Notes under the pieces: model-generated
Databases searched by the model: none
What the model was told of the DNA's origin: nothing
Seen by the model: the letters and a program-made list of their open reading frames with translations, nothing else
Origin: the human T2T-CHM13v2.0 reference genome, Homo sapiens
Reading direction: 5' to 3' (one strand)
Assembly (NCBI RefSeq): GCF_009914755.1
Contig: NC_060941.1
DNA: 64,000 nt
Shown: positions 1,100 through 44,951 of the stretch, in pieces
Numbering within the stretch: the first letter of the stretch is position 1
Layout of the letters: each line of letters opens with the position of its first letter
Program-made: the position numbers and the translations under genes

Positions 1100-2310
1100 A
1101 AAAAATGTGATACCACAACATGGATGAATCTTGAAAACATTATTCTAAGTGAAATAAGCCAGACACAAAAGGACTTTTTCCACTTACATAAGGTATCTAG
1201 CATAGTCAAATACACAGAGACAAGCTAGATCAACTAGGAGGAAAAAAGAGAGAAGACTCAAATAACTAAAATGAGAAATGAAACATTAGTACTAATTTTA
1301 CAGAAATCAAAAGATTATGACAGTGCTTTGAACAATCCTAAACCAACAAACTGGATAACCTAGATGAAACGGACAAATCCTAGAAATACATGCTACCAAG
1401 ATTGAATCATGAAGAAACCAGAAAATCTAAATAGACCTATAGTTTTAATAAGGAGATGGAATAAGTAATCAAAATAACTCCCAACAAATAAAAGCTCAGG
1501 GCCTTATGTCTTCATTGATGAATTCTACCAAACAATTGAAGGAGAATTAACACCAATCCTTCTCCAACTCTTCCAAAAAATTGAAGAGAAGGAAACACTT
1601 CCTAACTTATTGCATGGAGCCCTAATACCACAGACACAGGCATTACAAGAAAACTGCAGACCAATACCCCTGATGAATATTGACACAAAAGTTCTTAACA
1701 AAATATTAGCAAACTGGATTTAACATCATATTTAAAAGATTATATTGAAAGAATGATCCAGAGTAATTAGGCAAGAAAAAGAAATTAAAGGTATCTAAAT
1801 TGGGAAGTAAAAAGTAAAATTGTCTGTTCACAAATGGCATAATTGTATATGTAGAAAACCCCAAAGAGTCCACAAAAAAAACTGTTAGAATTAACAAAGG
1901 ATTTGGCAAAATTCCAGGACACAAAATAACACAGAAAAATCAGCTGCATTTCTATACACTAAAAATGAACAATTGGAAAAGAAAATTAAGAAAACAATTC
2001 CATTTACAATAGCACCAAAAAGAATAAAATACTTAGGAATTAACTGAGGGAGTGAAAGACTTATACACTGAAAACTACCAAAATATAGCTAAAAAATTAA
2101 AGAAGACACGATTAAATGAAAAGACATTCAGTGTCTTTTCACTGGATTGGAAGACTAATGCAGTTAAGATCAATGCAATTCCTATCAAAATCCCAAATGA
2201 TATTTTTTGTAGAAATAGAAAAATTTATTATAAAATTCATATGAAATCCCAAAGGACCCTGAATAGTCAAAACAACTCGAAAGAGCAGAACAAAGTTGCA
2301 GGTTTCACAG
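1100..2310 (+). mobile_element. Old L1 fragments (3'UTR piece plus degenerate ORF2)
   Basis: A-rich; remnants such as KDLYTENY and INAIPIKIP typical of L1 ORF2; many stops and frameshifts. Confidence 0.85.
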
Positions 2311-2324
2311 ACATTTTTTCCACC

Positions 2325-2510
2325 ACTGTGTGACCTTGGGCAAGTTACTGAATCTCTCTGTTCCCAAGTTTCCTCATCTGTAGATGAGGATAACAACATC
2401 ACCCACATCATAGGGCTTTTATGAATATCAAATGAATAAGGATATGGAAAATGCCTACAACACAGACTGAAACATAGTAAGTACTATATACAGAATAGCA
2501 GCTATTATTA
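2325..2510 (+). mobile_element. MIR
   Basis: tgtgaccttgggcaagttact...tttcctcatctgta core. Confidence 0.8.
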
Positions 2511-2511
2511 A

Positions 2512-5346
2512 TTTTTTATTAACATTACTCCCTGGATGGCTGGGGGAGCCTAGAGAATTTCTGCAGAGATATCTGGCTCCCTTGTAGGTGGTTTAGCCAA
2601 GTGGTACCCATTTCTGAGAAGCATATTTTTTCTAGAGTCAAGTCAAGACTTAGAGCCAAGTGCCAAGAAAGAAAATTAGCCAGAGGGCTGAATCACTTGA
2701 CTCACCTGGACAGGGAAAGCCCCACATCTGCTATGCTCAGACCTGCACAGGGTGCCGCAGAATGCACCAGTTTAATAAACTGGGGAAATTGGGGAGCTTG
2801 TTTCCTGTCCTTTGACTTGACTTTGGCAGCAAGGGGACAGCCCCAGCCCTTGCTTCCCAAAGCCAACTCATGCCCTTCCATTGACCACAAAAGAGCACAC
2901 TGTCCTAGAGACAAGACTGTTACTCACCACCGCTGCCATTCACCTGGCACCCTAAGAAGGAATCTGTGCCTTCCAAAAGACACACAGCTAAAAAGAATCA
3001 ATCACTGAGCTGTCCCCACAAGTGGAAACTTTCTCATTAAGAAGGCTGGAAGCAGGAGATGGAGTGTCTGCATTTAATTCTGTACCCTTTCCTTGTGGGA
3101 AGCATTGGTTGTCAATCCAGAGAAGCTGGAATCTTCCCTGGGAATCGCCGACAAGAGTGATAGGGGTCACTGTGATTCTAAACACTCCCTACAGGCATTT
3201 GCAATGCAGTTCTCACAGCTGGTTGCAAAAGTACCAGAAGAGAGAAGGCAAGAAAACAAGGTAATTGAATTCCCCGGCAAATGTGAATTAAGAAAAGTTG
3301 CCTTTGTATACAAGGTTAAACACTGGAACTGGGCCAGCTTGTCAGCTGGTTCAGGAGGGCAAGCCCAGGGCCAGGACATTTGCCTTTGAGCACAGGCCAC
3401 TTGTACAGGTCTGGCTGTTTGCCACCATCCCAGCAGGACCACATTCCAGGTGGAAATTGCCAAAATGTGCACACTGAGAATTTCCAACAGCTGAAGCTCC
3501 TCTTCAGGCCGTGAAGTCAGTGCTAGTCCTTGTGGCAACTCTAGCCAAGATCACCCTGGTTTTTTTACTTTCTCTCTTGAGAGCAGCACATAGAGGTAAA
3601 TACAGTATTGAGCAACTAGTGGAAATAGAAGGCATGGGGGTTTTCTGGTGGCTGACTCAAGCTGGCTTGTTTGTGTTACCTGTATCAGCCGTGACTCTCA
3701 AATCCATCTTTCTGAAACTCAAGTCATTGTGAGCAACCACCTCTCATCCCTGAACCAAAGTCAAAAATAAATGTGACATGGGATCAGGCGTGGACGCGGG
3801 AGCTTAATTATAAATTGACTGCTCTCCCGAGAAGAAACGTCACTGATTCGAGCTTTCATGATTTCATGGTGAGACCTAAACCATTTTTGCTTCTGCAAAA
3901 CCGCAGTCAAAGACATCTCTGAACAAGTTACCCCAAGTCTCTTACATGAGGATCTACGAAATCTAATTTTCCAGAAATGTAATGCCAAGTGAATGTTTGC
4001 TTCTCCAAACAAAAATGCTGCTTGTCAACAAGCAAACAAACAAAATGCTGATGCTGCTACTTCTTGGTTTTGTTCTTACTCTTCCTTGAAAATCAGGTGA
4101 TTAAATTTACATGGTCCACCATTTCTCTTTTTGCCTTGAGTGCTAGGAAGCTCAGAGTCAAATTTCATGCTCAAACTATTTGTCCACATTCCTGATAGAA
4201 TATTTCCCACTTTGCCATTATGAGGCTTCCAGTCTCTTTTTAAATGCTTCATGGTCACCGTATTTTAAGTTGTAAAACCCCTCATGTCCTTTTTAAATAA
4301 AGAGGCAGAATAAAATTAATTACTTAACTGGTTTAATCACTTAAACCTGACTTGGGGTTAAGCTCCAACCATGCTACTTAAAATAGAATTGAGCACCTAA
4401 TGCTCCTGAGACCTTGGTAACAGCTATTGTTCAGAAAGAATTGGCTCTGGGTAGGGTTTGGGTTACTGATTTGAATCTGTTTTCTTGGAACTAATTTGAA
4501 TTGATTGGTGAGGCTGAGGGACGGTCACTTCCTACACTCCTTTATTTGAAAGGATTATGTTTTTGTATTATAGCCAGGGAGGCAGGCAGGTGCAGTGACT
4601 CAAAATAATCTTCCTTGCTCTCAGCAAAGCACTTCACACGGCTACATACATCCATGTTCTTATCTTTCAGCCGAATTGTTACAACAAATACCAGCCCTGC
4701 AAAAATCTCAACAGAACAAAAGATCCCCAAGTCCTGGGAATTAAAAGAGATCCACTTATTAGAACAACTGTTCTCCTGCTTTGTTAACTAACAAAGCAGC
4801 AGAACAATTACAATACTTGGATTGCACTCAGGATTGGTTAAAACAGGTTTACACCTGGTTTATGAAATAAGTAAACATGGGTCGTGTTCACAATGTTATG
4901 TTAGGGCCCACTATTTGCAAAATCAATCAATTGCCATCTATTCAGTTAGAACCCTGGATTAGTTGGAATTGTGCAAGTTGCTGGTACCAAAATGGAGTCT
5001 CTTATGTCAAAACTCTAATAAAATGGAGTTGGGGGCATGAAAGAAGGAGCTCTCATATGCATATCTGTACCCTGTCTTATCACAAGAAATTCCTACACAC
5101 CCCACATGCCCCACTTGTCCCACATAGCATACATGCCCTGCATGTACCCTATAACAGCTTATCAGAAGAACTTTCTCAATATTGCAGTATTTTAGGTGAG
5201 CTGGCTACACCAGGACACTTAGCTGACAATGGCTGTCACCACCAATGAACAAATGCCAACTCTGTCATGAGCTTCTGTGATCTATGGACTTTGTTTCAAA
5301 GCAATTTATGTGGACTTCTTTTTGTCTTTCAAAGACTCTCCTTTGC
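2512..5346 (+). repeat. Left (donor) arm of ~2.83 kb near-perfect inverted repeat
   Basis: Reverse complement of 11300-14135; mirrored ORF pairs sum to 16647; I found 5 substitutions and 1 indel in the core plus 3 mismatches at the outer edge. Confidence 0.98.
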
Positions 5347-6660
5347 CCCAATACTCCTGGATATGTTTATGATCAATCATAGCCCACATATCCTGAGCTT
5401 GCAACCCCTCACTATTCGCAAATAAACACATTTGTTCTGGAGAGCCTATCCCTTTGAGTTTAATTTTAGGTTTATATACAATGATGTCAAAAGTGGAATC
5501 CAAAGCAAGCTTCACCTCAGACAGATTGGTGGCCCCCAGGACTATGTGCTGTACCCACCAAGCCACTTGCACGCCCCACTTCCATGAGTTGTCGCTTTGC
5601 CCTGGTCAGTCTCCTCTTGAATTTTGGTTGCTCCTGAATTTCGGTTAACTTTATTCAATATCTGGTTCTATAAAAGCCTAAAGGTCATCATCCTTCTGGT
5701 TTGACCTGCATGTCTGGCTTACAGTTTTGGTGAGTTAGATTTTTCTTATTTCTGAACATCTTCCAAGGGCAAAATAACATAATCAGGGGCACAGGTCAAC
5801 ACTGTTTTGGCTTTCTATCTACCAGGGCATACAGCTTATTAGGCCTGCCTCTGCAGGTGCCCGATCAAAAGGTTGGCAGCCCCCAAGAAAATGGCTGGAC
5901 AGAAATGTGGATTGCACCACATTTGTGGTGAGTATATTTATAAAGTTTTTCCTTTTGCTCTTGGGAAATTAATAAGAAGGAGAATGGAATCCCCAAATTC
6001 TAAAGCTTGAAGAGATAGTCCTTCTTTAGGGACTCCAGCTGACTACATGTTCAAACATTGTGGCCCTTTCTCATGCACATTTTTAAGCCAATAGGCAAAT
6101 TACAGCAAAGATAGTTTTAAAATATAATGGCTATCATCTAGAATGTTCCATATGAACAACAACACACTTTAAGAAGTACATTTAAAAATTAGGGCTCCCA
6201 AATTAGGCTATCTAGAGGTGTCTATTGATGTGCAGAAGCTTCTAAGAAGATTTCAAAATTTTTTATTGTCTCTTTAAAAAGACTTCTTACAGACAGCAAA
6301 TAAAAAATTTAAGTGACTAATTGGAAAAAAAAAAAAAAGGATACAAAGGAGTATAATGGCTAACATTAGAGACTCCCTTAGCAGATCCCTCATAGGAGCA
6401 TGCAGGCCCCACCCCACAATGTGGAAATAAAGGGAAAGAGTTCCTTCAAGGGAAATTCCAGCTTTGTCTAAAAATCTTCCCTTAGCAAGATTTTTAAAAG
6501 CTGAAATCAGAGCAAAGTTAAAGTTATTTAAACCCACCATAAATTCCTTTTCTCTGTAAATTCCTTTGATTCAGGAGAAAAACATTTACAAGAACTTGTT
6601 TAAATTATTTGTGCATTTGAAGCATTGTAAGAACTTCTTGTTTGTTTGGCCCTCTCTCTT
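4970..6660 (+). mobile_element. MER67-like ERV1 LTR (~4970-5480) followed by MER4-group internal remnant
   Basis: ctggtaccaaaatggagtc start, AATAAA ~5421, degenerate tRNA-Leu PBS tgatgtcaaaagtggaat at ~5482. Confidence 0.65.
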
Positions 6661-6681
6661 AAGCTAAAAAGGAACTATGTA

Positions 6682-8190
6682 CAATCATGGGTCACTTAAT
6701 GGCAGGGATATTGTATTCGTCCATTCTCACACTGATAATGAAGTTATACCCCAGACTGGGTAATTTATAAAGAAAAAGAGGCTTAATGAACTCACAGTTC
6801 CACATGGCTGGGGAGGCCTCACAGTCATAGCAGAAAGTGAAGGAGGAGCAAAGGCACATCTTACATGGCAGCAGGCAAGAGAGCATGTGCAGGGGAACTG
6901 CCCTTTATAAAACCATCAGATCTTGTGAGACTATTCACTATAAGGGGAACAGCATGGAAAAAACCTACCCCATGATTCAGTTACCTCCCACTGGTTTTCT
7001 CCCGCAACATGTGGGGCTTACGGGAGCTACAATTCAAGATGGGACTTGGGTGGGGACACAGCCAAACCATATCAGATATGTTCTGAGAAATGCATCATGA
7101 GGTGATTTCATTATTGTGCAAATATCATTGAGTGTACTTACATAAACCTAGATGGTATAGCCTACAGCATACCTTGGCTATATGGTACAGCCTATTGCTC
7201 CTAGGCTACAAACCTGTACAGCATGTGACTGTACTGAATACTGTAAGTAACTGTAACACAATGGTAAGCATTTGCATATCTAAACATAGAAAAGGCACAG
7301 TAAAAAAATACAGTACAAAAGTTTTTTTCAAAGGTATACCTGTAGAGGGCACGTACCATGAATGGAGCTTGCAGGACTGGAAGTTGCTCTGAGTGAATCG
7401 GTAGGTGAGTGGTGAGTGAAGATGAAGGCCTAGGACATTATTGTACACTACTGTAGATTTACTGTACATTTAGATGACACTAAATTCATTTAGAATTCCT
7501 TTCTTCAATAATAAATTAACCTTGGCTTACTATAACTTTTTTACTTTATAAACTTTTTAATTTTTAAAAAACTTTTTGACTCATAATAACACAGCTTAAA
7601 ACACAAATACATTGCACAGCTATACAAAAATATTTTGTCTCTATTCTTATAAGCTTTTCTTGTTAATTCTTGTTTTTTTTTTTACTTTTTAAACTGTTTT
7701 ATTAGAAACTAAGGCACACCACACATTAGCTTAGGCCTACACAGTGTCAGGATCATCAATATCACAACTGCCTTCCATCTCCACATCTTGTCCCACTGGA
7801 AGGTCTTTGGGGGAACAATGTGCATGGAGCTGTCATCTCCTGTGATAACATACCTTCCTCTGGAATACCTCCTGAAGGACCTGCCTGAGGCTATTTTATA
7901 GTTCACTTAAAAAAATAAGTACAAGGAGTATACTCTGAAATAACAGTAAAAAGTATATTGTCATATTCACATAGTCAATAAAAATGATAGTTATTTGTTT
8001 ACATATGTATAGGAAATACACAAACCAGTAACATAGTCATTGTATTATCATTATCAAGTATTATATACCTTACATAACTGTCTGTGAGATATTTTTGTAC
8101 AACTGCAGCACGGTAGGTTTGTCTACACCAGCATCACCACAAACATGAGTAATGCATTGCACTTGGATGCCAAGATGGCTATGACCACAC
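6682..8190 (+). mobile_element. Tigger3-type DNA transposon, interrupted by THE1
   Basis: caatcatg...gggatat|gttctgagaaatgc...cctagatggtatagcctac resembles Tigger3b. Confidence 0.8.
6712..7074 (-). mobile_element. THE1 (MaLR) solo LTR
   Basis: Ends ggggacacagccaaaccatatca; 5-bp TSD GATAT at 6707-6711 and 7075-7079. Confidence 0.92.
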
Positions 8191-8501
8191 CCAGACCTGC
8201 AACGCTGCAGGTATTAAGACCAGAGGTGTCTCCCTACTGATCCCAGCAAGTCCATTTGTGTGAAAACAGACAGGGAGCTGCCAGAAGTTCAAATGTAGGA
8301 TTTCAAGTGCCCAGCCAAGTCATTGGCTCCCAGAATACATAATGAAAACCAACAACAAACAAATCGAAACAGCTCAGAAGCAAAGCAAAGTGCTATTGGA
8401 AAAGCAGCACCAGTGCTTTTGTGAGATTCAGAGATATAATCCCTGCCACCTCCAAAAAGAAGCAATAAGAACAATTATGTAAGATTCTTTAGGGCAAGGA
8501 C

Positions 8502-9269
8502 TGAGATAGAGCAGGGACCCCTCATAGGAGCCTGTAGGCCCCTCCCTGCAACATGGAAATAAAGGAAAAGAGTTTCTTCAAGGGAAACTCCAGGCACCTA
8601 GCTAGCCCTGAGAAGAAAATGAGTGACCTGATCATTAAGAAGGTAATAGTAGCTTAAAACTATAACCAAGGAAGTTAGAGTCACAAGATGTTCCCTGTAG
8701 AACATTATATTTATCCCTTTATCCCTAACGATAACGTCTTAACATACGTTTCTCTGAGTTGTTTTTCAGGTACCTGGACCCCTACCAAATGGATCCACTA
8801 GCACACAGGCCTCAGATAAGGGGGAACTGCGGATTGAACTCTGACCACTCCTCTTTCTTCTGAAGTTCTTCCTGAGGGACCTGGAGGAAATCATACCCAC
8901 AAACCAGAGCTTACATTCTTTTCTACTGACCCCAAATTTTTAGACAAAGCTTTGCTTCCTTAACCAATTGCAAATCAGAAAATCTTTGAATCTTTGAATG
9001 CTTTGAGACATCCCCCCTTTTTAGGTCAAAGCAATATATAGCCTCCATGTATTAATATGTAGTTGTGCCTGTAACCTCTGCCTCCCTGCCTTAAAAAACC
9101 CTTAACAAGCCATCGGGGAAGCCAGGTCTTAAGCATGAGCTGCTGGATTCTCCTTGCTGGGCACTCGCAAATAAACATCCTCCTTTCTCCCACTGCAAAC
9201 CTTGGTGTAGATGTTTGGACTTACTGTGCCAGGTGAGTGGTCAGTGGATCCCAAGTGGATTCAGTAACA
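8502..9269 (+). mobile_element. 5' LTR of provirus
   Basis: tgagatagagcagggacccc...tcagtaaca; direct repeat of 21469-22234. Confidence 0.9.
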
Positions 9270-9275
9270 ATTAGT

Positions 9276-9293
9276 TGGCAACTACAAAGGGGC
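9276..9293 (+). other. Degenerate primer-binding site (tRNA-Arg type)
   Basis: tggcaactacaaaggggc vs recalled TGGCGACCACGAAGGGAC, 14/18, just after the 5'LTR. Confidence 0.65.
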
Positions 9294-10244
9294 GAAAGTC
9301 CCAACCGGTGGCCTTGCCCATGGCACACCAGCCCCTGGCTGCAGCCACCCTTGGACCCTGTCCGGCAGTTGGCTGAATTATTTTGCTCAGGGATGGATCC
9401 ATGCATTTTATGCTTGACCAGGTGTCATGGGCCATGGCATTTTTACTTTTGTAGCATTAAAAATAAGGCACTGGGCTTGGAAGATGTCCTTCGTAAGTGG
9501 TAGGTTTGTGGGCAACAGCCCCAAGGTATTTTTTTCTTTGGACACTGGGTTCTGCTTTGGCAGGACAACTGACTTTGCTTTGGCAAGGCCCTGGGCCCTG
9601 CTTTCTTAGAGTATTTGGTTTGATTGGGATACTCACTAGAGAGCTGAAGGGATCCAGAACTTGAGAAACCATATTTGGTTTTGACTTGCTGAAAACAGAC
9701 TTGCTTGAAACTCTATCTGAAGCCTGGCTGAGGCAGCAAGGTTTTCATCACCTATGGTTTTGTCATCTAAAATGGGAAACACAAGCTCTATTCTACCTTG
9801 CAGCCCATTAGGGTGTATTCTGCAGAACTGGGCCATTTTTAGCTTTCAGCCCATGAAAAAGAAAAAGTTTTTTTTTTTTTTAATTGTAGTACTGCTTGGC
9901 TGCAATATTCTTTAGACTCTGGAGGAAAATGGCCTGAAAAGGGGTCCTTTAAATTGGACTCCTAAATTCAAAAAATAATTTTAGAGATCTCTTTTTCTAA
10001 ACAGTTGATGGGAAAATCAAATTTTAAAAAGGAAATGCAATAGCGTCATGGCTAGCCTTAAGAATTCTCTTGACTAAATTAAAGAACAAAAATATAACCT
10101 AAAACAAAGTTAAAAAATATTGCAAGCTAAAAACTACATGACTTAGATCTTCTCCAGGAATAACAGCAAAGACCATTCCATACTGTAGTCTAGCAGCTAA
10201 AGTTCCACCATTTCACTACAGCAGCTTGGGTTCAGTCAGGGAAC

Positions 10245-10823
10245 TGAAACCACCTTTGCAAAAATTATATCAATGAGAAAATTATGACAGTGAAAGAGAT
10301 CTGATCTAACCCACCCTCCTCTTTCATTTCCTTTAATCATTCCTGGGTTTAGGCCTAGCTAACTTTGGAAGACACTTAGGTTATAGGCCTTCCCCAGAGT
10401 TCAACCACCTTTGTAAAGCTAATAAGAGACCCTCAGTCTAGGGGGAGGAGAGAAGCCCAAATTCTGCTAAGGCATAGACATAAATGACTGTCAGCCATTA
10501 TTCCAGGGGTCCTGCAAATAGCATCACTATTGTAGAACCTAAGATTGGCCTTTTTATATATCTTTTCAGGCTTTTTGCATGTCTTCTATCCATGGCTCCA
10601 CCTAGACCTGCCAACTCCATTCCTGTGGCCCCACCCAGAAGCAACTCAGCTCAAGAGCCTTTGAAAATCCCCTAACCTACTAGCCTGAGATGAGATTGAT
10701 TTGAGTGCTAACTCAATCTCCTGCATGGCATGGCCAGCCTCATGTCAATTAAACTCTTTCTTTGCTGCAATGCTGTGGTCTTTATTTGTGCAGTGGGCAG
10801 GAAGAACCCAATGGAAAATTACA
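10245..10823 (+). mobile_element. LTR8-family solo LTR nested in provirus
   Basis: tgaaaccacctttgcaaaaatta...gaagaacccaatggaaaattaca; TSD GAAC both sides. Confidence 0.85.
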
Positions 10824-11125
10824 GAACAAGTCTTATTGATTTGATATTCATGTGACTTTTGCAACTTACTGATTCTTTTCCTTTCCAGGAACCGCTTTTG
10901 ATTTCCTGCCCTCTTCCATCTTAGAGGCATATGGACTTTGGGGGTCTTCGTGTTTAGATTCTCAGCTGAGATTCTAGAGAATATGGCCAAACAGAAATGT
11001 GGCTTGTACTCCATTTGTAGCTAGCAAAATTTTTCTTTCTTTGAGCTGTCTTGAGGGTGATTCTGGATCTTGTGAGCACTGATTTTCACCTCTTCGGAGA
11101 CCTCATGCAACTCTTGGTTGAGTCA

Positions 11126-14100
11126 TGTTAAAAGAAAAACTTTAGCCGAATTAAATTTAAAGGAGTTTAATTGAGCAATGAATGATTCGCAAATTGGGCA
11201 GTCCCCAGAATCACACCAGATTCAAAGAGACTCCAGGGATGCCTCATGGTCAGAACAAATTCATAGACCAAAAAGGAGGGAAGTGACATACAGAAATTTG
11301 CAAAGGAGAGTCTTTGAAAGACAAAAGGAAGTCCACATAAATTGCTTTGAAACAAAGTCCATAGATCACAGAAGCTCATGACAAGAGTTGGCATTTGTTC
11401 ATTGGTGGTGACAGCCATTGCCAGCTAAGTGTCCTGGTGTAGCCAGCTCACCTAAAATACTGCAATATTGAGAAAGTTCTTCTGATAAGCTGTTATAGGG
11501 TACATGCAGGGCATGTATGCTATGTGGGACAAGTGGGGCATGTGGGGTGTGTAGGAATTTCTTGTGATAAGACAGGGTACAGATATGCATATGAGAGCTC
11601 CTTCTTTCATGCCCCCAACTCCATTTTATTAGAGTTTTGACATAAGAGACTCCATTTTGGTACCAGCAACTTGCACAATTCCAACTAATCCAGGGTTCTA
11701 ACTGAATAGATGGCAATTGATTGATTTTGCAAATAGTGGGCCCTAACATAACATTGTGAACACGACCCATGTTTACTTATTTCATAAACCAGGTGTAAAC
11801 CTGTTTTAACCAATCCTGAGTGCAATCCAAGTATTGTAATTGTTCTGCTGCTTTGTTAGTTAACAAAGCAGGAGAACAGTTGTTCTAATAAGTGGATCTC
11901 TTTTAATTCCCAGGACTTGGGGATCTTTTGTTCTGTTGAGATTTTTGCAGGGCTGGTATTTGTTGTAACAATTCGGCTGAAAGATAAGAACATGGATGTA
12001 TGTAGCCGTGTGAAGTGCTTTGCTGAGAGCAAGGAAGATTATTTTGAGTCACTGCACCTGCCTGCCTCCCTGGCTATAATACAAAAACATAATCCTTTCA
12101 AATAAAGGAGTGTAGGAAGTGACCGTCCCTCAGCCTCACCAATCAATTCAAATCAGTTCCAAGAAAACAGATTCAAATCAGTAACCCAAACCCTACCCAG
12201 AGCCAATTCTTTCTGAACAATAGCTGTTACCAAGGTCTCAGGAGCATTAGGCGCTCAATTCTATTTTAAGTAGCATGGTTGGAGCTTAACCCCAAGTCAG
12301 GTTTAAGTGATTAAACCAGTTAAGTAATTAATTTTATTCTGCCTCTTTATTTAAAAAGGACATGAGGGGTTTTACAACTTAAAATACGGTGACCATGAAG
12401 CATTTAAAAAGAGACTGGAAGCCTCATAATGGCAAAGTGGGAAATATTCTATCAGGAATGTGGACAAATAGTTTGAGCATGAAATTTGACTCTGAGCTTC
12501 CTAGCACTCAAGGCAAAAAGAGAAATGGTGGACCATGTAAATTTAATCACCTGATTTTCAAGGAAGAGTAAGAACAAAACCAAGAAGTAGCAGCATCAGC
12601 ATTTTGTTTGTTTGCTTGTTGACAAGCAGCATTTTTGTTTGGAGAAGCAAACATTCACTTGGCATTACATTTCTGGAAAATTAGATTTCGTAGATCCTCA
12701 TGTAAGAGACTTGGGGTAACTTGTTCAGAGATGTCTTTGACTGCGGTTTTGCAGAAGCAAAAATGGTTTAGGTCTCACCATGAAATCATGAAAGCTCGAA
12801 TCAGTGACGTTTCTTCTCGGGAGAGCAGTCAATTTATAATTAAGCTCCCGCGTCCACGCCTGATCCCATGTCACATTTATTTTTGACTTTGGTTCAGGGA
12901 TGAGAGGTGGTTGCTCACAATGACTTGAGTTTCAGAAAGATGGATTTGAGAGTCACGGCTGATACAGGTAACACAAACAAGCCAGCTTGAGTCAGCCACC
13001 AGAAAACCCCCATGCCTTCTATTTCCACTAGTTGCTCAATACTGTATTTACCTCTATGTGCTGCTCTCAAGAGAGAAAGTAAAAAAACCAGGGTGATCTT
13101 GGCTAGAGTTGCCACAAGGACTAGCACTGACTTCACGGCCTGAAGAGGAGCTTCAGCTGTTGGAAATTCTCAGTGTGCACATTTTGGCAATTTCCACCTG
13201 GAATGTGGTCCTGCTGGGATGGTGGCAAACAGCCAGACCTGTACAAGTGGCCTGTGCTCAAAGGCAAATGTCCTGGCCCTGGGCTTGCCCTCCTGAACCA
13301 GCTGACAAGCTGGCCCAGTTCCAGTGTTTAACCTTGTATACAAAGGCAACTTTTCTTAATTCACATTTGCCGGGGAATTCAATTACCTTGTTTTCTTGCC
13401 TTCTCTCTTCTGGTACTTTTGCAACCAGCTGTGAGAACTGCATTGCAAATGCCTGTAGGGAGTGTTTAGAATCACAGTGACCCCTATCACTCTTGTCGGC
13501 GATTCCCAGGGAAGATTCCAGCTTCTCTGGATTGACAACCAATGCTTCCCACAAGGAAAGGGTACAGAATTAAATGCAGACACTCCATCTCCTGCTTCCA
13601 GCCTTCTTAATGAGAAAGTTTCCACTTGTGGGGACAGCTCAGTGATTGATTCTTTTTAGCTGTGTGTCTTTTGGAAGGCACAGATTCCTTCTTAGGGTGC
13701 CAGGTGAATGGCAGCGGTGGTGAGTAACAGTCTTGTCTCTAGGACAGTGTGCTCTTTTGTGGTCAATGGAAGGGCATGAGCTGGCTTTGGGAAGCAAGGG
13801 CTGGGGCTGTCCCCTTGCTGCCAAAGTCAAGTCAAAGGACAGGAAACAAGCTCCCCAATTTCCCCAGTTTATTAAACTGGTGCATTCTGCGGCACCCTGT
13901 GCAGGTCTGAGCATAGCAGATGTGGGGCTTTCCCTGTCCAGGTGAGTCAAGTGATTCAGCCCTCTGGCTAATTTTCTTTCTTGGCACTTGGCTCTAAGTC
14001 TTGACTTGACTCTAGAAAAAATATGCTTCTCAGAAATGGGTACCACTTGGCTAAACCACCTACAAGGGAGCCAGATATCTCTGCAGAAATTCTCTAGGCT

Positions 14101-14387
14101 CCCCCAGCCATCCAGGTAGTAACATTAATAAAAAAACCTGTAACCTATTTTAATAGGCAGACAAGATTGAAAACCTAACTTAGGAATATGCACCTGTAAC
14201 AGTAGCTGAGTCTTGGCCAATCCCAACAGCCATACTGCAACCACTCAAGTGTTCAAACTGTGTTCAAATAAGGTAAACACCAACCTGTAACCAATCCAAC
14301 TGTTTTTTTACCTCATTCCCAATTTCCACAAGGACTCAAATAGAGAAGTACGGAGTCCTCTCAGACCATATTTAGTTTGCTTTAACA
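11126..14387 (-). mobile_element. MER57 LTR, split and internally rearranged (11126-11299 minus, ~14136-14326 plus, ~14327-14387 minus)
   Basis: TSD GTCA at 11122-11125 and 14388-14391; ends match recalled MER57 consensus TGTTAAAGCAAACTAAATATGG...TTTTCTTTTAACA. Confidence 0.85.
11300..14135 (-). repeat. Right (inserted) arm of the inverted repeat
   Basis: Reverse complement of 2512-5346; interrupts a MER57 LTR. Confidence 0.98.
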
Positions 14388-14573
14388 GTCATAACCCTGG
14401 TTAAGGCCTATTAGTTTCACAGGGAAGGCTATCTTTGGAAAAAATTTCAAAAACCAGAAATATCAGTGGTTCACCCCACTAAAATCTGGTAATAAGAGAT
14501 GTGAAATTTTTTTAAAAGAGCTTTATAATCAGAAGTCAACATAATTAAAACAGAATACAGAATTTAGGCTATT

Positions 14574-14575
<2 letters not shown>

Positions 14576-14620
<45 letters not shown>
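14576..14620. repeat. (TG)n microsatellite, ~22 units
   Basis: Direct. Confidence 0.98.
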
Positions 14621-14622
<2 letters not shown>

Positions 14623-15786
14623 TTTAAGACCTCTGTTCTCTCTCTATAAAAATTTCTCCATCAACTAAATTCATTTTGTCTTGAACTCCTGCTAGCCTTA
14701 TGCACTCCGTCTGTCTGTCTCTCCATTCACTTCTGTTGGCCCCTCCTTCCTCTTGCCATCCTTGATGCCACATGAGAGGACCAGAAAAATACGTTCTAAC
14801 AGCCTGAGATCCCTTAAGGAAAACAGAAAAGATGCCATGAACTACTCTTTTGAGAGGAACCTCTGTTTTTCCTCAGGGAATCCCAAGAGTTGTAAATATA
14901 CAGAGGCCTCGCCTCCCAGACCTAAAATTCTGTTCTCTTTTGTATTCTATTACCTTATCTGTTGGTTTTTGAGGTGCCAGAAATTACTCTATATTATGAA
15001 AAAAATTCCCTTATAAGATCCTGTGGTAAATTCCTGCAATTTTATGTTGCTTGATATCCATTTTTAGTTTTCCTGCAGCACAGCCTAAACTCCTTCTTAA
15101 AGTTGAATAAATTCTTGCTCTCTCTATCTTTTGAGACATGGATGGCTACACCTTGCTTCCACTGGGGCTCCATGATGACTTGAACCATGTGGGACAAATG
15201 GATTTTCATTCGTTCCACTTACAGCAACATAAATTGAATCCAGCTATCCTTTTAACTTTAGCCAGTCTCATGGCCAGAGTTTTAAAATCAAGACTGTAGT
15301 GTCTTTGTTTATGCCTGTTTGGATCTTTATTATGTGCATGTGTATGACCTTGTATGTTGCCTATGATACCAAATTGGCTTGTAAATAAAGGAGTACTTAT
15401 AAATTAAATGAATAAGTCCAAATGCTTTTCAGGTTCCCATGATTTTAATAATCTTTAGTAAATAAAGATAGTTTCGAAATTGTTGGTAAAACAAAATAAA
15501 AGTGTTTTCAGAATTTAATGTAGACATTTCTGCCCAGATCTATTGATCAGATACTGTCTCTGCTAGGTGTTTTAAGGTCATAAAACTATTGCTTCTGTAG
15601 TCCTTTCGATACTTGCTTCACTTGTCTATAAGCTTATGTATGTCTTTAGATTTGAGCCTTCGGGCCATGATGAGGCCTAGATCCAGGAAAAGTCCTTTGT
15701 CCTGGGGTCTACATCTGAAACATTAAAATTGCTTATTTCCTGTGCTTTTCATTGAAAATAAGGGTTATTAAGAATTAACATTGTAA

Positions 15787-19578: not shown

Positions 19579-20699
<1,121 letters not shown>

Positions 20700-21468: not shown

Positions 21469-22234
21469 TGAGACCGAGCAGGACCCCTCTAAGGGTCCTG
21501 CAGGGATCTCCTCCCCACCCCCTCCAAAGCATGGAAATAAAGGAAAATCTTGAGTTCCTTCAAGGGAAATTCCAGGCACCTAGCTAGCTCTGAGAAGTAA
21601 ATGAGCAACTTGATAAGCAAGAAGGTAATAGTAGCTTAAAACCATAGCCAAGGAAGTTAGAGTCACAAGATGTTCCTTGTAGAATCTAAAGATAACTTCT
21701 TAACATATGTCCCTGAGTTGTTTTTCAGAAACCCCCACCAAATGGATCCACTGGAGCATAGACCTCAGATAAGGGGGAATTGAGGACTGAATTCTGACTG
21801 CCATTCTTAGTTCTAAAGTTCTTCCTGAGAATCCTGGAGGAAGCCATGCGAAAAAGCCAGGGCTAACATTTTTTTCAGCTGATCCTAAATTTTTAGACAA
21901 AGCTTTGCTTCCGTAGCCAACTGCAAATCAGAAAATCTTTGCATCTACCTATGACCTGTAAGCCCCTGGTTTGAGATGTCCCACCTTTTTAGATCAAACC
22001 AATGTGTAGTCTATGTGTATTGATTCACGAGTTTGCCTATAACCTCTGCCTTCTCATCTTTAAACCCCCTTACTTGCAAGCCATCGGGGAGGTCAGGTCT
22101 TAAGCATGAGCTGCCTGATTCCGCTTACTTGGTTCCCTGAAAATTAACACCCTCCTTTCTTCCACTGCAAACCTCAGTGTGAATGTTTGACTTTACTGCA
22201 CCAGGCAAGCGGACCCCACTTCAGTTCTGTAACA
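21469..22234 (+). mobile_element. 3' LTR of provirus
   Basis: Preceded by purine tract aaaagacaggaggaat; ends ctgtaaca|GGAC. Confidence 0.9.
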
Positions 22235-44212: not shown

Positions 44213-44951
44213 TAAGAGCAGGGACCCCTCTTAGGGACCTGCAGGGATCCCCCAAGCGTGGAAATAGAGGAAAATCTTGAGTTCCTTCAAGGGAAATTCC
44301 AGGCAAGTAGCTAGCCCTGCAAAGTAAATGAGCATCTGGATAAGCCAGAAGGTGATAGTAGCTTAAAACAGTAGTGAAGGAAGTGAGAATCATGGGATGT
44401 TTGGTCCCCCTATAGAAACTAAAGATCACATCTTAACACATGTCCCTGTGTTGTTTGGCAGAAACCTGGACCTCCACCAAATGGATCCACTGGCTCAAAG
44501 ACGTCAGATAGGGAGGACTAAGGACCAAACTCTGACCACTGTTCTTCATCATTCTAAATTTCTTCCTGAGGGGCCTGGCAGAGGTCACGCCCCTGGGCCA
44601 GAACTAATATTCTGCTAATCCCAAAGTTTTAGACAAAACTTTGCCTCTTTAACCAATTGCAAATCAGAAAACCTTTGAATCCATCTGTGACTCCTGGCTA
44701 CCCCCTCCCTCCTGCTTTGAGATGGCCCTCCTTTTTAGGTCAAACTCATGTATGGCCCCCATGCACTGATTTATGACGTTGCCTGTAACCTCTGCCTTCT
44801 CACCTTTAAAAACCCTTGTCTGTAAGCCATGGAGGAGTTCAGGTATTAAGCATGAGCTGCCCCATTCTCCTTGCTTGGCACTCTGCAATCTTGATGCCAA
44901 GGTTGGACTTTATTGCACCAGGTGAGTGGATCCCAGTTTGGTCCAATAACA
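44213..44951 (+). mobile_element. Solo LTR of the same family as the 8502/21469 LTRs
   Basis: gagcagggacccctcttaggg...caataaca; TSD AGAC at 44209-44212 and 44952-44955. Confidence 0.88.

What the first reader, a model, noticed from the sequence alone, without database searches (positions are those of the whole stretch)
11126..14391. Complex template-switch event: distant inverted copy plus local 190-bp inversion inside one MER57 LTR
Seen, against the recalled MER57 consensus: the outer pieces (11126-11299, ~14327-14387) are minus strand with an intact GTCA TSD. The middle piece (~14136-14326) is plus strand and follows the 2.83 kb insert. The hexamer AATTTC occurs at both breaks (11293-11298 as gaaatt; 14321-14326), and there is TC microhomology at 14325-14326. 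The insert has no poly(A) or TSD of its own, so it is not a retrotransposition. Inference: a multi-switch FoSTeS/MMBIR or Pol-theta event created the inverted repeat.
Basis: partly seen in the sequence, partly recalled or inferred. Interest (0 to 1): 0.7.

Follow-up and report, generated by a model that had tools for sequence, protein, structure and literature searches.

The report
Old inverted duplication upstream of NOS2
Upstream of the human NOS2 gene a 2.8-kb stretch occurs twice in opposite orientation, the second copy lying inside a broken retroviral-relic repeat; it likely arose in one DNA-repair accident, probably before humans and chimpanzees split, and is an ordinary kind of rearrangement that may let the 6 kb between the copies flip.

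Summary
The anatomy is real. One solo LTR (11126-14387, GTCA target-site duplication) is cut in three: the outer pieces lie on one strand, the 191-bp middle on the other, dovetailing in 9 of 9 intact genomic copies. Between them sits a 2,836-bp inverted copy of 2512-5346 (99.7% identical); the left arm is the donor. Both LTR breakpoints are reused to within 6 and about 2 bp, so one event is very likely. The layout is more simply one same-strand copy plus one 3,027-bp flip. The TC microhomology is chance-level (P 0.17), and 2.8 kb is too long for Pol-theta. New here: arm differences crowd at the ends (P 0.0002-0.003) and seem to have arisen in both arms, pointing to an older event with later gene conversion. 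A putative 6.5-kb human-chimpanzee inversion (Feuk 2005) falls on the spacer, if my recalled coordinate conversion holds. The locus is absent from two recent human inversion tables. Verdict: new member of a known kind (local copy-and-paste rearrangement that made an inverted-repeat inversion substrate); no gene is hit. Interest 0.3.

The parts
2512..5346 (+). Donor arm (2,835 bp), mostly unique DNA; its last ~380 bp are part of an older repeat
   Evidence: the older repeat runs on across 5346 in 17 of 23 family copies
4970..5472 (+). Older LTR-like repeat, whole here, cut at 11300 in the copy; shows which arm is the donor (family name not determined)
   Evidence: (L013 aligns 4970-5472 on the left, stops at 11302 on the right)
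5347..11299 (.). 5,953-bp spacer between the arms, largely repeats; candidate invertible segment; in pre-event orientation in this assembly
   Evidence: size; continuity with both sides; putative chimpanzee inversion, placement by recalled coordinates
11122..11125 (+). Left target-site duplication GTCA
11126..11298 (-). 3' piece of the solo LTR (MER57-like, name recalled), 173 bp
   Evidence: 79-87% identical to 9 of 9 copies
11293..11298 (-). First copy of the duplicated hexamer at the left break; followed by one unexplained base at 11299
11300..14135 (-). Inverted copy of the donor arm (2,836 bp, 99.68% identical)
14136..14326 (+). Middle piece of the LTR, 191 bp, inverted relative to the outer pieces; ends in the second hexamer copy (14321-14326); start uncertain by 1-2 bases in an A run
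14327..14387 (-). 5' piece of the LTR, 61 bp (63 with the shared TC at 14325-14326)
14388..14391 (+). Right target-site duplication GTCA

Best explanation
A 2,836-bp inverted copy of a nearby block and a flipped 191-bp piece lie inside one solo LTR; they likely arose together in one break-repair event with copying, and the two arms have likely been kept near-identical since by gene conversion. Shown: three junctions; both LTR breakpoints reused (6 bp duplicated at one, about 2 bp lost at the other); left arm is the donor; 0-2 bp of microhomology. Read on the minus strand, the middle piece runs head-to-tail into the copy, so the layout equals one same-strand copy plus one 3,027-bp flip. Inferred path: a break in the LTR; the free end invades DNA about 9 kb upstream without long homology and copies 2.8 kb; a second, staggered cut about 190 bp away frees the block, which is rejoined the wrong way round by near-blunt end joining. 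Inferred later history: the event is older than 0.3% divergence suggests (about 10 Myr from the arm ends, range 4-22), the arm interiors are homogenised by conversion, and crossovers in the arms can flip the 6-kb spacer, as the chimpanzee draft appears to show.
For: Pieces dovetail in 9 of 9 intact copies; hexamer position single in natural copies; donor polarity in 17 of 23 loci; microhomology at chance level. Six of 9 arm differences lie within 122 bp of an end, P 0.0002-0.003 under the two stricter countings. Derived states seem to sit in both arms: 5319 donor-like in 22 of 23 copies, 5226 copy-like in 17 of 23. Feuk 2005 Table S1 lists a 6,466-bp, 98.92%-match human-chimpanzee inversion at Build 35 chr17:23,183,532-23,189,997, which a recalled offset places at window 5,776-12,241, covering 5,524 of 5,953 spacer bases. 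Single-event copy-and-paste clusters with tightly grouped breakpoints are described in PMC7025897 (passages).
Against: No ape or population sequence could be read, so age, fixation and flipping are indirect. Junction sequence cannot separate physical breaks from polymerase switches; a 6-mer (CCCAAT) shared by donor and target near the left break occurs in only 473 of 18,282 control 15-mers and leans a little towards microhomology-primed switching. Polarity of the 5262 indel is inconclusive by score (7 copy-like, 5 donor-like, 11 ties), and 7 of the 17 rows at 5226 are near-identical paralogues. The three outer-end differences cannot be polarised. The Feuk row is from a low-coverage draft; BAC sequence backed only 11 of 60 checkable rows of that list; its placement rests on recalled coordinates and it starts about 430 bp inside the spacer. 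No human inversion was found here in two recent tables.
Confidence: 0.55

Rival explanations
1. Pure replicative path (FoSTeS/MMBIR), the first reader's view: the polymerase leaves at 11298, copies the donor backwards, copies the middle piece backwards, and returns just past it, with no second physical cut.
For: A 2.8-kb copy needs synthesis; in-place inversions by short template switches are described (PMC7954356, passages); small inversions with flanking indels are ascribed to FoSTeS/MMBIR (PMC6748972, passage); near-junction 6-mer similarity, about 2.6% by chance.
Against: Junction microhomologies are 0-2 bp, chance-level; the path must land twice within 6 and about 2 bp of earlier points, which two cuts explain directly.
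Confidence: 0.27
2. The event is young and human-specific (about 1.6 Myr); the differences at the arm ends come from error-prone synthesis near the junctions, and the chimpanzee row is a draft artefact or misplaced.
For: Whole-arm divergence 0.32%; locus absent from human inversion tables; many false positives in the Feuk list.
Against: Error-prone copying would put all derived bases in the new arm, yet 5226 looks derived in the donor; a 6.5-kb inverted alignment is not expected if chimpanzee had one arm only.
Confidence: 0.1
3. Two or more independent events: a small inversion and a later insertion at its edge, or a 9-kb tandem duplication later trimmed and flipped.
For: The insert-middle junction is of the head-to-tail type that a tandem duplication gives.
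Against: Needs a second event to hit an earlier junction within 0-2 bp.
Confidence: 0.04
4. Pol-theta alone wrote the insert, or L1 machinery retro-copied it.
For: One unexplained base at a junction; the insert ends in an A run.
Against: Pol-theta insertions are generally under 25 bp (PMC12426944); 6 of the 7 A are templated by the donor, and the insert has no direct TSD.
Confidence: 0.02
5. Assembly artefact: a false duplication in this assembly.
For: Arms are 99.7% identical, with a longest identical run of 1,528 bp.
Against: Nine differences with non-random placement; junctions fit the LTR to the base; the whole repeat spans 11.6 kb, within one long read (own knowledge of the assembly method).
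Confidence: 0.02

Closest known systems
Local n-jumps / templated insertions (Li et al. 2020, PMC7025897; passages seen)
   Same: Several junctions in one locale, tightly grouped breakpoints, low copy gain, mix of inverted and non-inverted junctions, read as one copy-and-paste event.
   Different: Those are somatic cancer events seen against a matched normal genome; this is a germline, probably old event read against repeat-family copies.
FoSTeS/MMBIR-type small human inversions with indels (Giner-Delgado 2019, PMC6748972; passage seen) and short template switches (Walker 2021, PMC7954356; passages seen)
   Same: In-place inversion of a short piece with a few bases gained or lost at the ends.
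   Different: Here a 2.8-kb copy from 6-9 kb away is part of the event, and microhomology is not above chance.
Inverted-repeat-mediated recurrent inversions such as HsInv0114 (arms 2,734 bp) and HsInv0278 (arms about 2,800 bp) (PMC13629690 Table S1 part 1; PMC3961182 passages)
   Same: Arm length, high identity and spacer size are in the same range.
   Different: No human polymorphism is listed for this locus in the tables searched; only a putative human-chimpanzee difference.
Arm-to-arm gene conversion in palindromes (Hallast 2013, PMC3723533; passages seen)
   Same: Arms kept more alike than their age predicts.
   Different: Those are 100-kb sex-chromosome palindromes with outgroup proof; here 2.8-kb autosomal arms, and conversion is inferred from 9 differences.
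Pol-theta templated insertions (PMC12426944; passages seen)
   Same: Templated DNA at a junction with little microhomology.
   Different: About a hundredfold longer than the usual size.

Membership tests
Solo LTR of one multi-copy family (MER57-like, name recalled) | TG...CA ends with a short target-site duplication | tested here: met
   TGTT start at 11126, AACA end at 14387, GTCA on both sides; flanks continuous with one GTCA in 4 of 6 loci
Solo LTR of one multi-copy family (MER57-like, name recalled) | Pieces are colinear parts of one ~430-bp unit | tested here: met
   9 of 9 intact copies, about 427-441 bp; 1,464 first-look candidates genome-wide
MER57 (named subfamily) | Best match to a Dfam/Repbase MER57 consensus | not testable with these tools
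   No repeat library is held; PMC5753468 passages list the subfamilies but give no sequence
Single-event complex rearrangement (local n-jump) | Three or more junctions with tightly grouped, reused breakpoints and low copy gain | tested here: met
   Three junctions; 6-bp overlap and about 2-bp loss
Single-event complex rearrangement (local n-jump) | No intermediate allele in outgroups or population | not testable with these tools
   No primate or pangenome sequence is held
FoSTeS/MMBIR product | Microhomology at junctions above chance | tested here: inconclusive
   0-2 bp exact, P 0.17-0.42; one near-junction 6-mer at about 2.6%
FoSTeS/MMBIR product | New point mutations confined to the newly made copy near junctions | tested here: inconclusive
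   End-clustered, but 5226 looks derived in the donor, 5319 in the copy, 5262 unresolved
Pol-theta templated insertion | Short insert, generally under 25 bp | tested here: not met
   2,836 bp against PMC12426944
L1-mediated retro-copy | Untemplated poly(A) and direct TSD | tested here: not met
   A run templated by donor; no direct duplication around the insert
IR-mediated (NAHR) inversion locus | Inverted arms over 90% identical flanking a spacer | tested here: met
IR-mediated (NAHR) inversion locus | Both orientations observed | tested here: inconclusive
   Putative chimpanzee inversion (placement recalled); not in the human tables searched

The most novel reading that the evidence does not exclude
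A base-pair-resolved birth record of an autosomal inverted repeat that predates the human-chimpanzee split, is kept young-looking by arm-to-arm conversion, and still flips a 6-kb repeat-rich block 29-40 kb upstream of NOS2 as an uncatalogued human inversion polymorphism, missed because the arms are not among the hg38 inverted segmental duplications that were tested.
Probability: 0.25. Interest if true: 0.5.

Novelty: new member of a known kind. Interest (0 to 1): 0.3.

Why it matters
It is a clean worked example of how an inversion-prone inverted repeat is born: nested repeats give the direction of copying and all three junctions. It warns that 99.7% identity need not mean a young, human-specific duplication. 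It also names a testable gap: an arm pair of the size that drives known recurrent inversions, beside NOS2, that is not among 612 candidates in a recent catalogue. No gene, RNA family or long ORF is involved, so no functional effect is shown.

Tried and rejected
A first impression that 2,752 bp were 100% identical was rounding; one search lists 9 differences. Separate insertion of the middle piece: rejected, it has no LTR ends or TSD and fits between the outer pieces. Retro-copy and Pol-theta alone: rejected. Rfam scan of 2000-15000: 0 matches. ORFs over 80 aa in 11126-14391: 3, longest 123 aa, not followed up. NF-kB-like motif duplicated in both arms: 28 matches in the window against 21.5 expected, 18 of 100 shuffles as high, so no signal. 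Older SINE crossing the donor's outer edge: weak hits stop near 2384, so not shown. Literature: no paper held all terms for 'inversion polymorphism + inverted repeats + LYRM9', 'NOS2 + LYRM9 + inversion', 'NOS2 + inverted duplication + upstream + primate', 'NOS2A + chr17 + Build 35'. None of the 20 chr17 rows of Table S1 of PMC10150506 lies at 28.77-28.78 Mb. PMC13629690 tables: no coordinate starting 2782 or 2783, and the one 2784 hit is a size in another locus; no matching sizes; hg38 place anchored on HsInv0374. The supplement of PMC12058530 was an unreadable scan and the great-ape Strand-seq inversion paper is not held; both may list this locus. No independent Build 35 anchor was found. 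Earlier scan findings were not available.

Full report
Observation. A self-comparison of the window finds one long inverted repeat, 2512-5346 against 11300-14135, 2,836 columns at 99.68%, with 8 substitutions and 1 gap. A genome search with the right arm returned only these two full-length places; its other hits cover the first ~380 bases or a 44-bp internal hairpin. The 191-bp piece at 14136-14326 belongs to a large family (1,464 first-look candidates, 40 scored). Against the 9 non-self copies fetched, 11126-11298 and 14325/7-14387 align on one strand and the middle on the other in 9 of 9, filling one unit of about 427-441 bp. GTCA flanks the element on both sides, and the two flanks are one continuous older repeat with a single GTCA in 4 of 6 loci examined; 2 were uninformative. 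So this is one LTR insertion, broken later. The family name MER57 is recalled, not tested.

Direction of copying. An older repeat spans 4970-5472 across the left arm's inner edge and stops at 11300-11302 in the right arm; 17 of 23 family copies align across 5346. The left arm is the donor. This assembly also keeps the spacer in its pre-event orientation, since the outer LTR pieces share a strand and a TSD.

Junctions. Left break: the hexamer at 11293-11298 recurs at 14321-14326, while natural copies hold that position once: 6 bp of target were duplicated; base 11299 fits neither side. Insert-middle junction: 1-2 shared bases in an A run, 6 of whose 7 A come from the donor. Right break: 2-bp TC shared, about 2 bp of LTR lost. 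Two or more shared bases occur at 16.7% of random junctions, and at one of three in 42%, so TC says nothing. A 6-mer shared by donor and target near the left break is rarer (473 of 18,282 control 15-mers) but is not used cleanly in the junction and was noticed after the fact.

Mechanism. Read on the minus strand, the middle piece runs head-to-tail into the copy. The structure is therefore one same-strand copy of 2.8 kb added at a break, plus one flip of 3,027 bp. Each LTR breakpoint is used twice, within 6 and about 2 bp, which makes independent events unlikely (inference). I favour break repair with synthesis and a second staggered cut, closed by near-blunt end joining (0.55), over a pure three-switch polymerase path (0.27); the sequence cannot settle this. 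Both are single-event copy-and-paste of the kind called local n-jumps (PMC7025897, passages); small inversions with indels are ascribed to FoSTeS/MMBIR in PMC6748972 (one passage) and PMC7954356 (passages). Pol-theta insertions are generally under 25 bp (PMC12426944, passages).

Age and later history. The 9 differences lie 12, 13, 19, 355, 953, 855, 122, 86 and 29 bp from the nearest arm end. Against uniform placement P is 0.0002-0.0004 with the adjacent pair counted once, 0.0015-0.0027 with all three outer-end differences counted once, and 0.011 by a KS test. The outer and inner 150 bp differ by 2.0% (0.7-4.4), the interior by 0.12%; the 150-bp cut was chosen after seeing the data. At 1e-9 per base per year (rate as used in 10.1101/501981, passages) that is about 10 Myr (4-22) for the ends against 1.6 Myr for the whole arm. 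Using 23 copies of the older repeat as outgroups, 5319 is donor-like in 22 of 23 (new arm derived); 5226 is copy-like in 17, donor-like in 4, tied in 2 (donor derived; 7 of the 17 are paralogues 97-99.7% identical to L034); 5262 is unresolved by score (7, 5, 11 ties), although by my reading 13 of 23 rows have the longer form and 8 the shorter, 7 of these the paralogues. My first notebook count of 21 of 23 for that site was too high. Mutation in both arms with a cleaner interior fits ageing plus gene conversion, as in Y palindromes (PMC3723533, passages), better than error-prone synthesis.

Is it known? No paper describing this locus was found. It is not among the 20 chr17 rows of the T2T inversion table of PMC10150506 (supplement rows), nor, by number search, among the 612 candidates of PMC13629690 (supplement searches and part 1, methods section). 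But Table S1 of Feuk et al. 2005 (PMC1270012; supplement passage; main-text passages) lists a putative human-chimpanzee inversion at Build 35 chr17:23,183,532-23,189,997, 6,466 bp, 98.92% match. I chose the search prefixes before seeing it. With a recalled Build 35 position for the NOS2 5' end it maps to window 5,776-12,241, covering 5,524 of 5,953 spacer bases and staying inside the repeat span for offset errors from -3.3 to +1.9 kb. If right, chimpanzee has both arms and the spacer has flipped. Against: the conversion is recalled and unanchored; the chimpanzee draft was low-coverage; 23 of 27 tested regions validated but BAC sequence backed only 11 of 60; I found no mention of this row in the main text and did not see Table 1. 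Supplements that I could not read (PMC12058530; the great-ape Strand-seq paper) may already list it.

Function. The repeat lies 28.6-40.2 kb upstream of NOS2 and 37.6 kb from LYRM9, outside the RefSeq elements in the task's table. No Rfam match, no ORF over 123 aa, no motif excess.

Verdict. Observation confirmed; interpretation partly supported. New member of a known kind, interest 0.3. The boldest reading not excluded is an uncatalogued human inversion polymorphism beside NOS2 on an old, converted repeat (probability 0.25, interest 0.5).

Noticed in passing
window 8502-9233, 21469-22205, 44215-44888: Three copies of another LTR-like repeat, 72-76% identical to each other; the first lies in the spacer.
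   Followed up: no
window about 14246: The middle LTR piece lacks 10 bp that 5 of 5 displayed natural copies have; whether this belongs to the event is unknown.
   Followed up: no
window 11838-11881 and 4766-4809: A 44-bp imperfect hairpin inside each arm (self-match at 86%).
   Followed up: no
window 2523-2524 and 14123-14124: The arms read CA and TG at the same place, as if a CpG had decayed independently in each; cannot be polarised.
   Followed up: partly
window 2612-2723 and 13924-14035: A GAS-like and an NF-kB-like motif about 100 bp apart are duplicated with the arm; NF-kB-like motif density in the window is at chance level.
   Followed up: partly
window 20403-20623: Three tandem copies with a 66-bp period, 90-94% identical, resembling an LTR12-type repeat (recalled).
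   Followed up: no
L034, L035, L037-L041: Seven fetched copies of the older repeat are 97-99.7% identical paralogues, most near contig ends.
   Followed up: partly
window 14570-14620: A (TG)n microsatellite about 180 bp beyond the LTR's right end.
   Followed up: no
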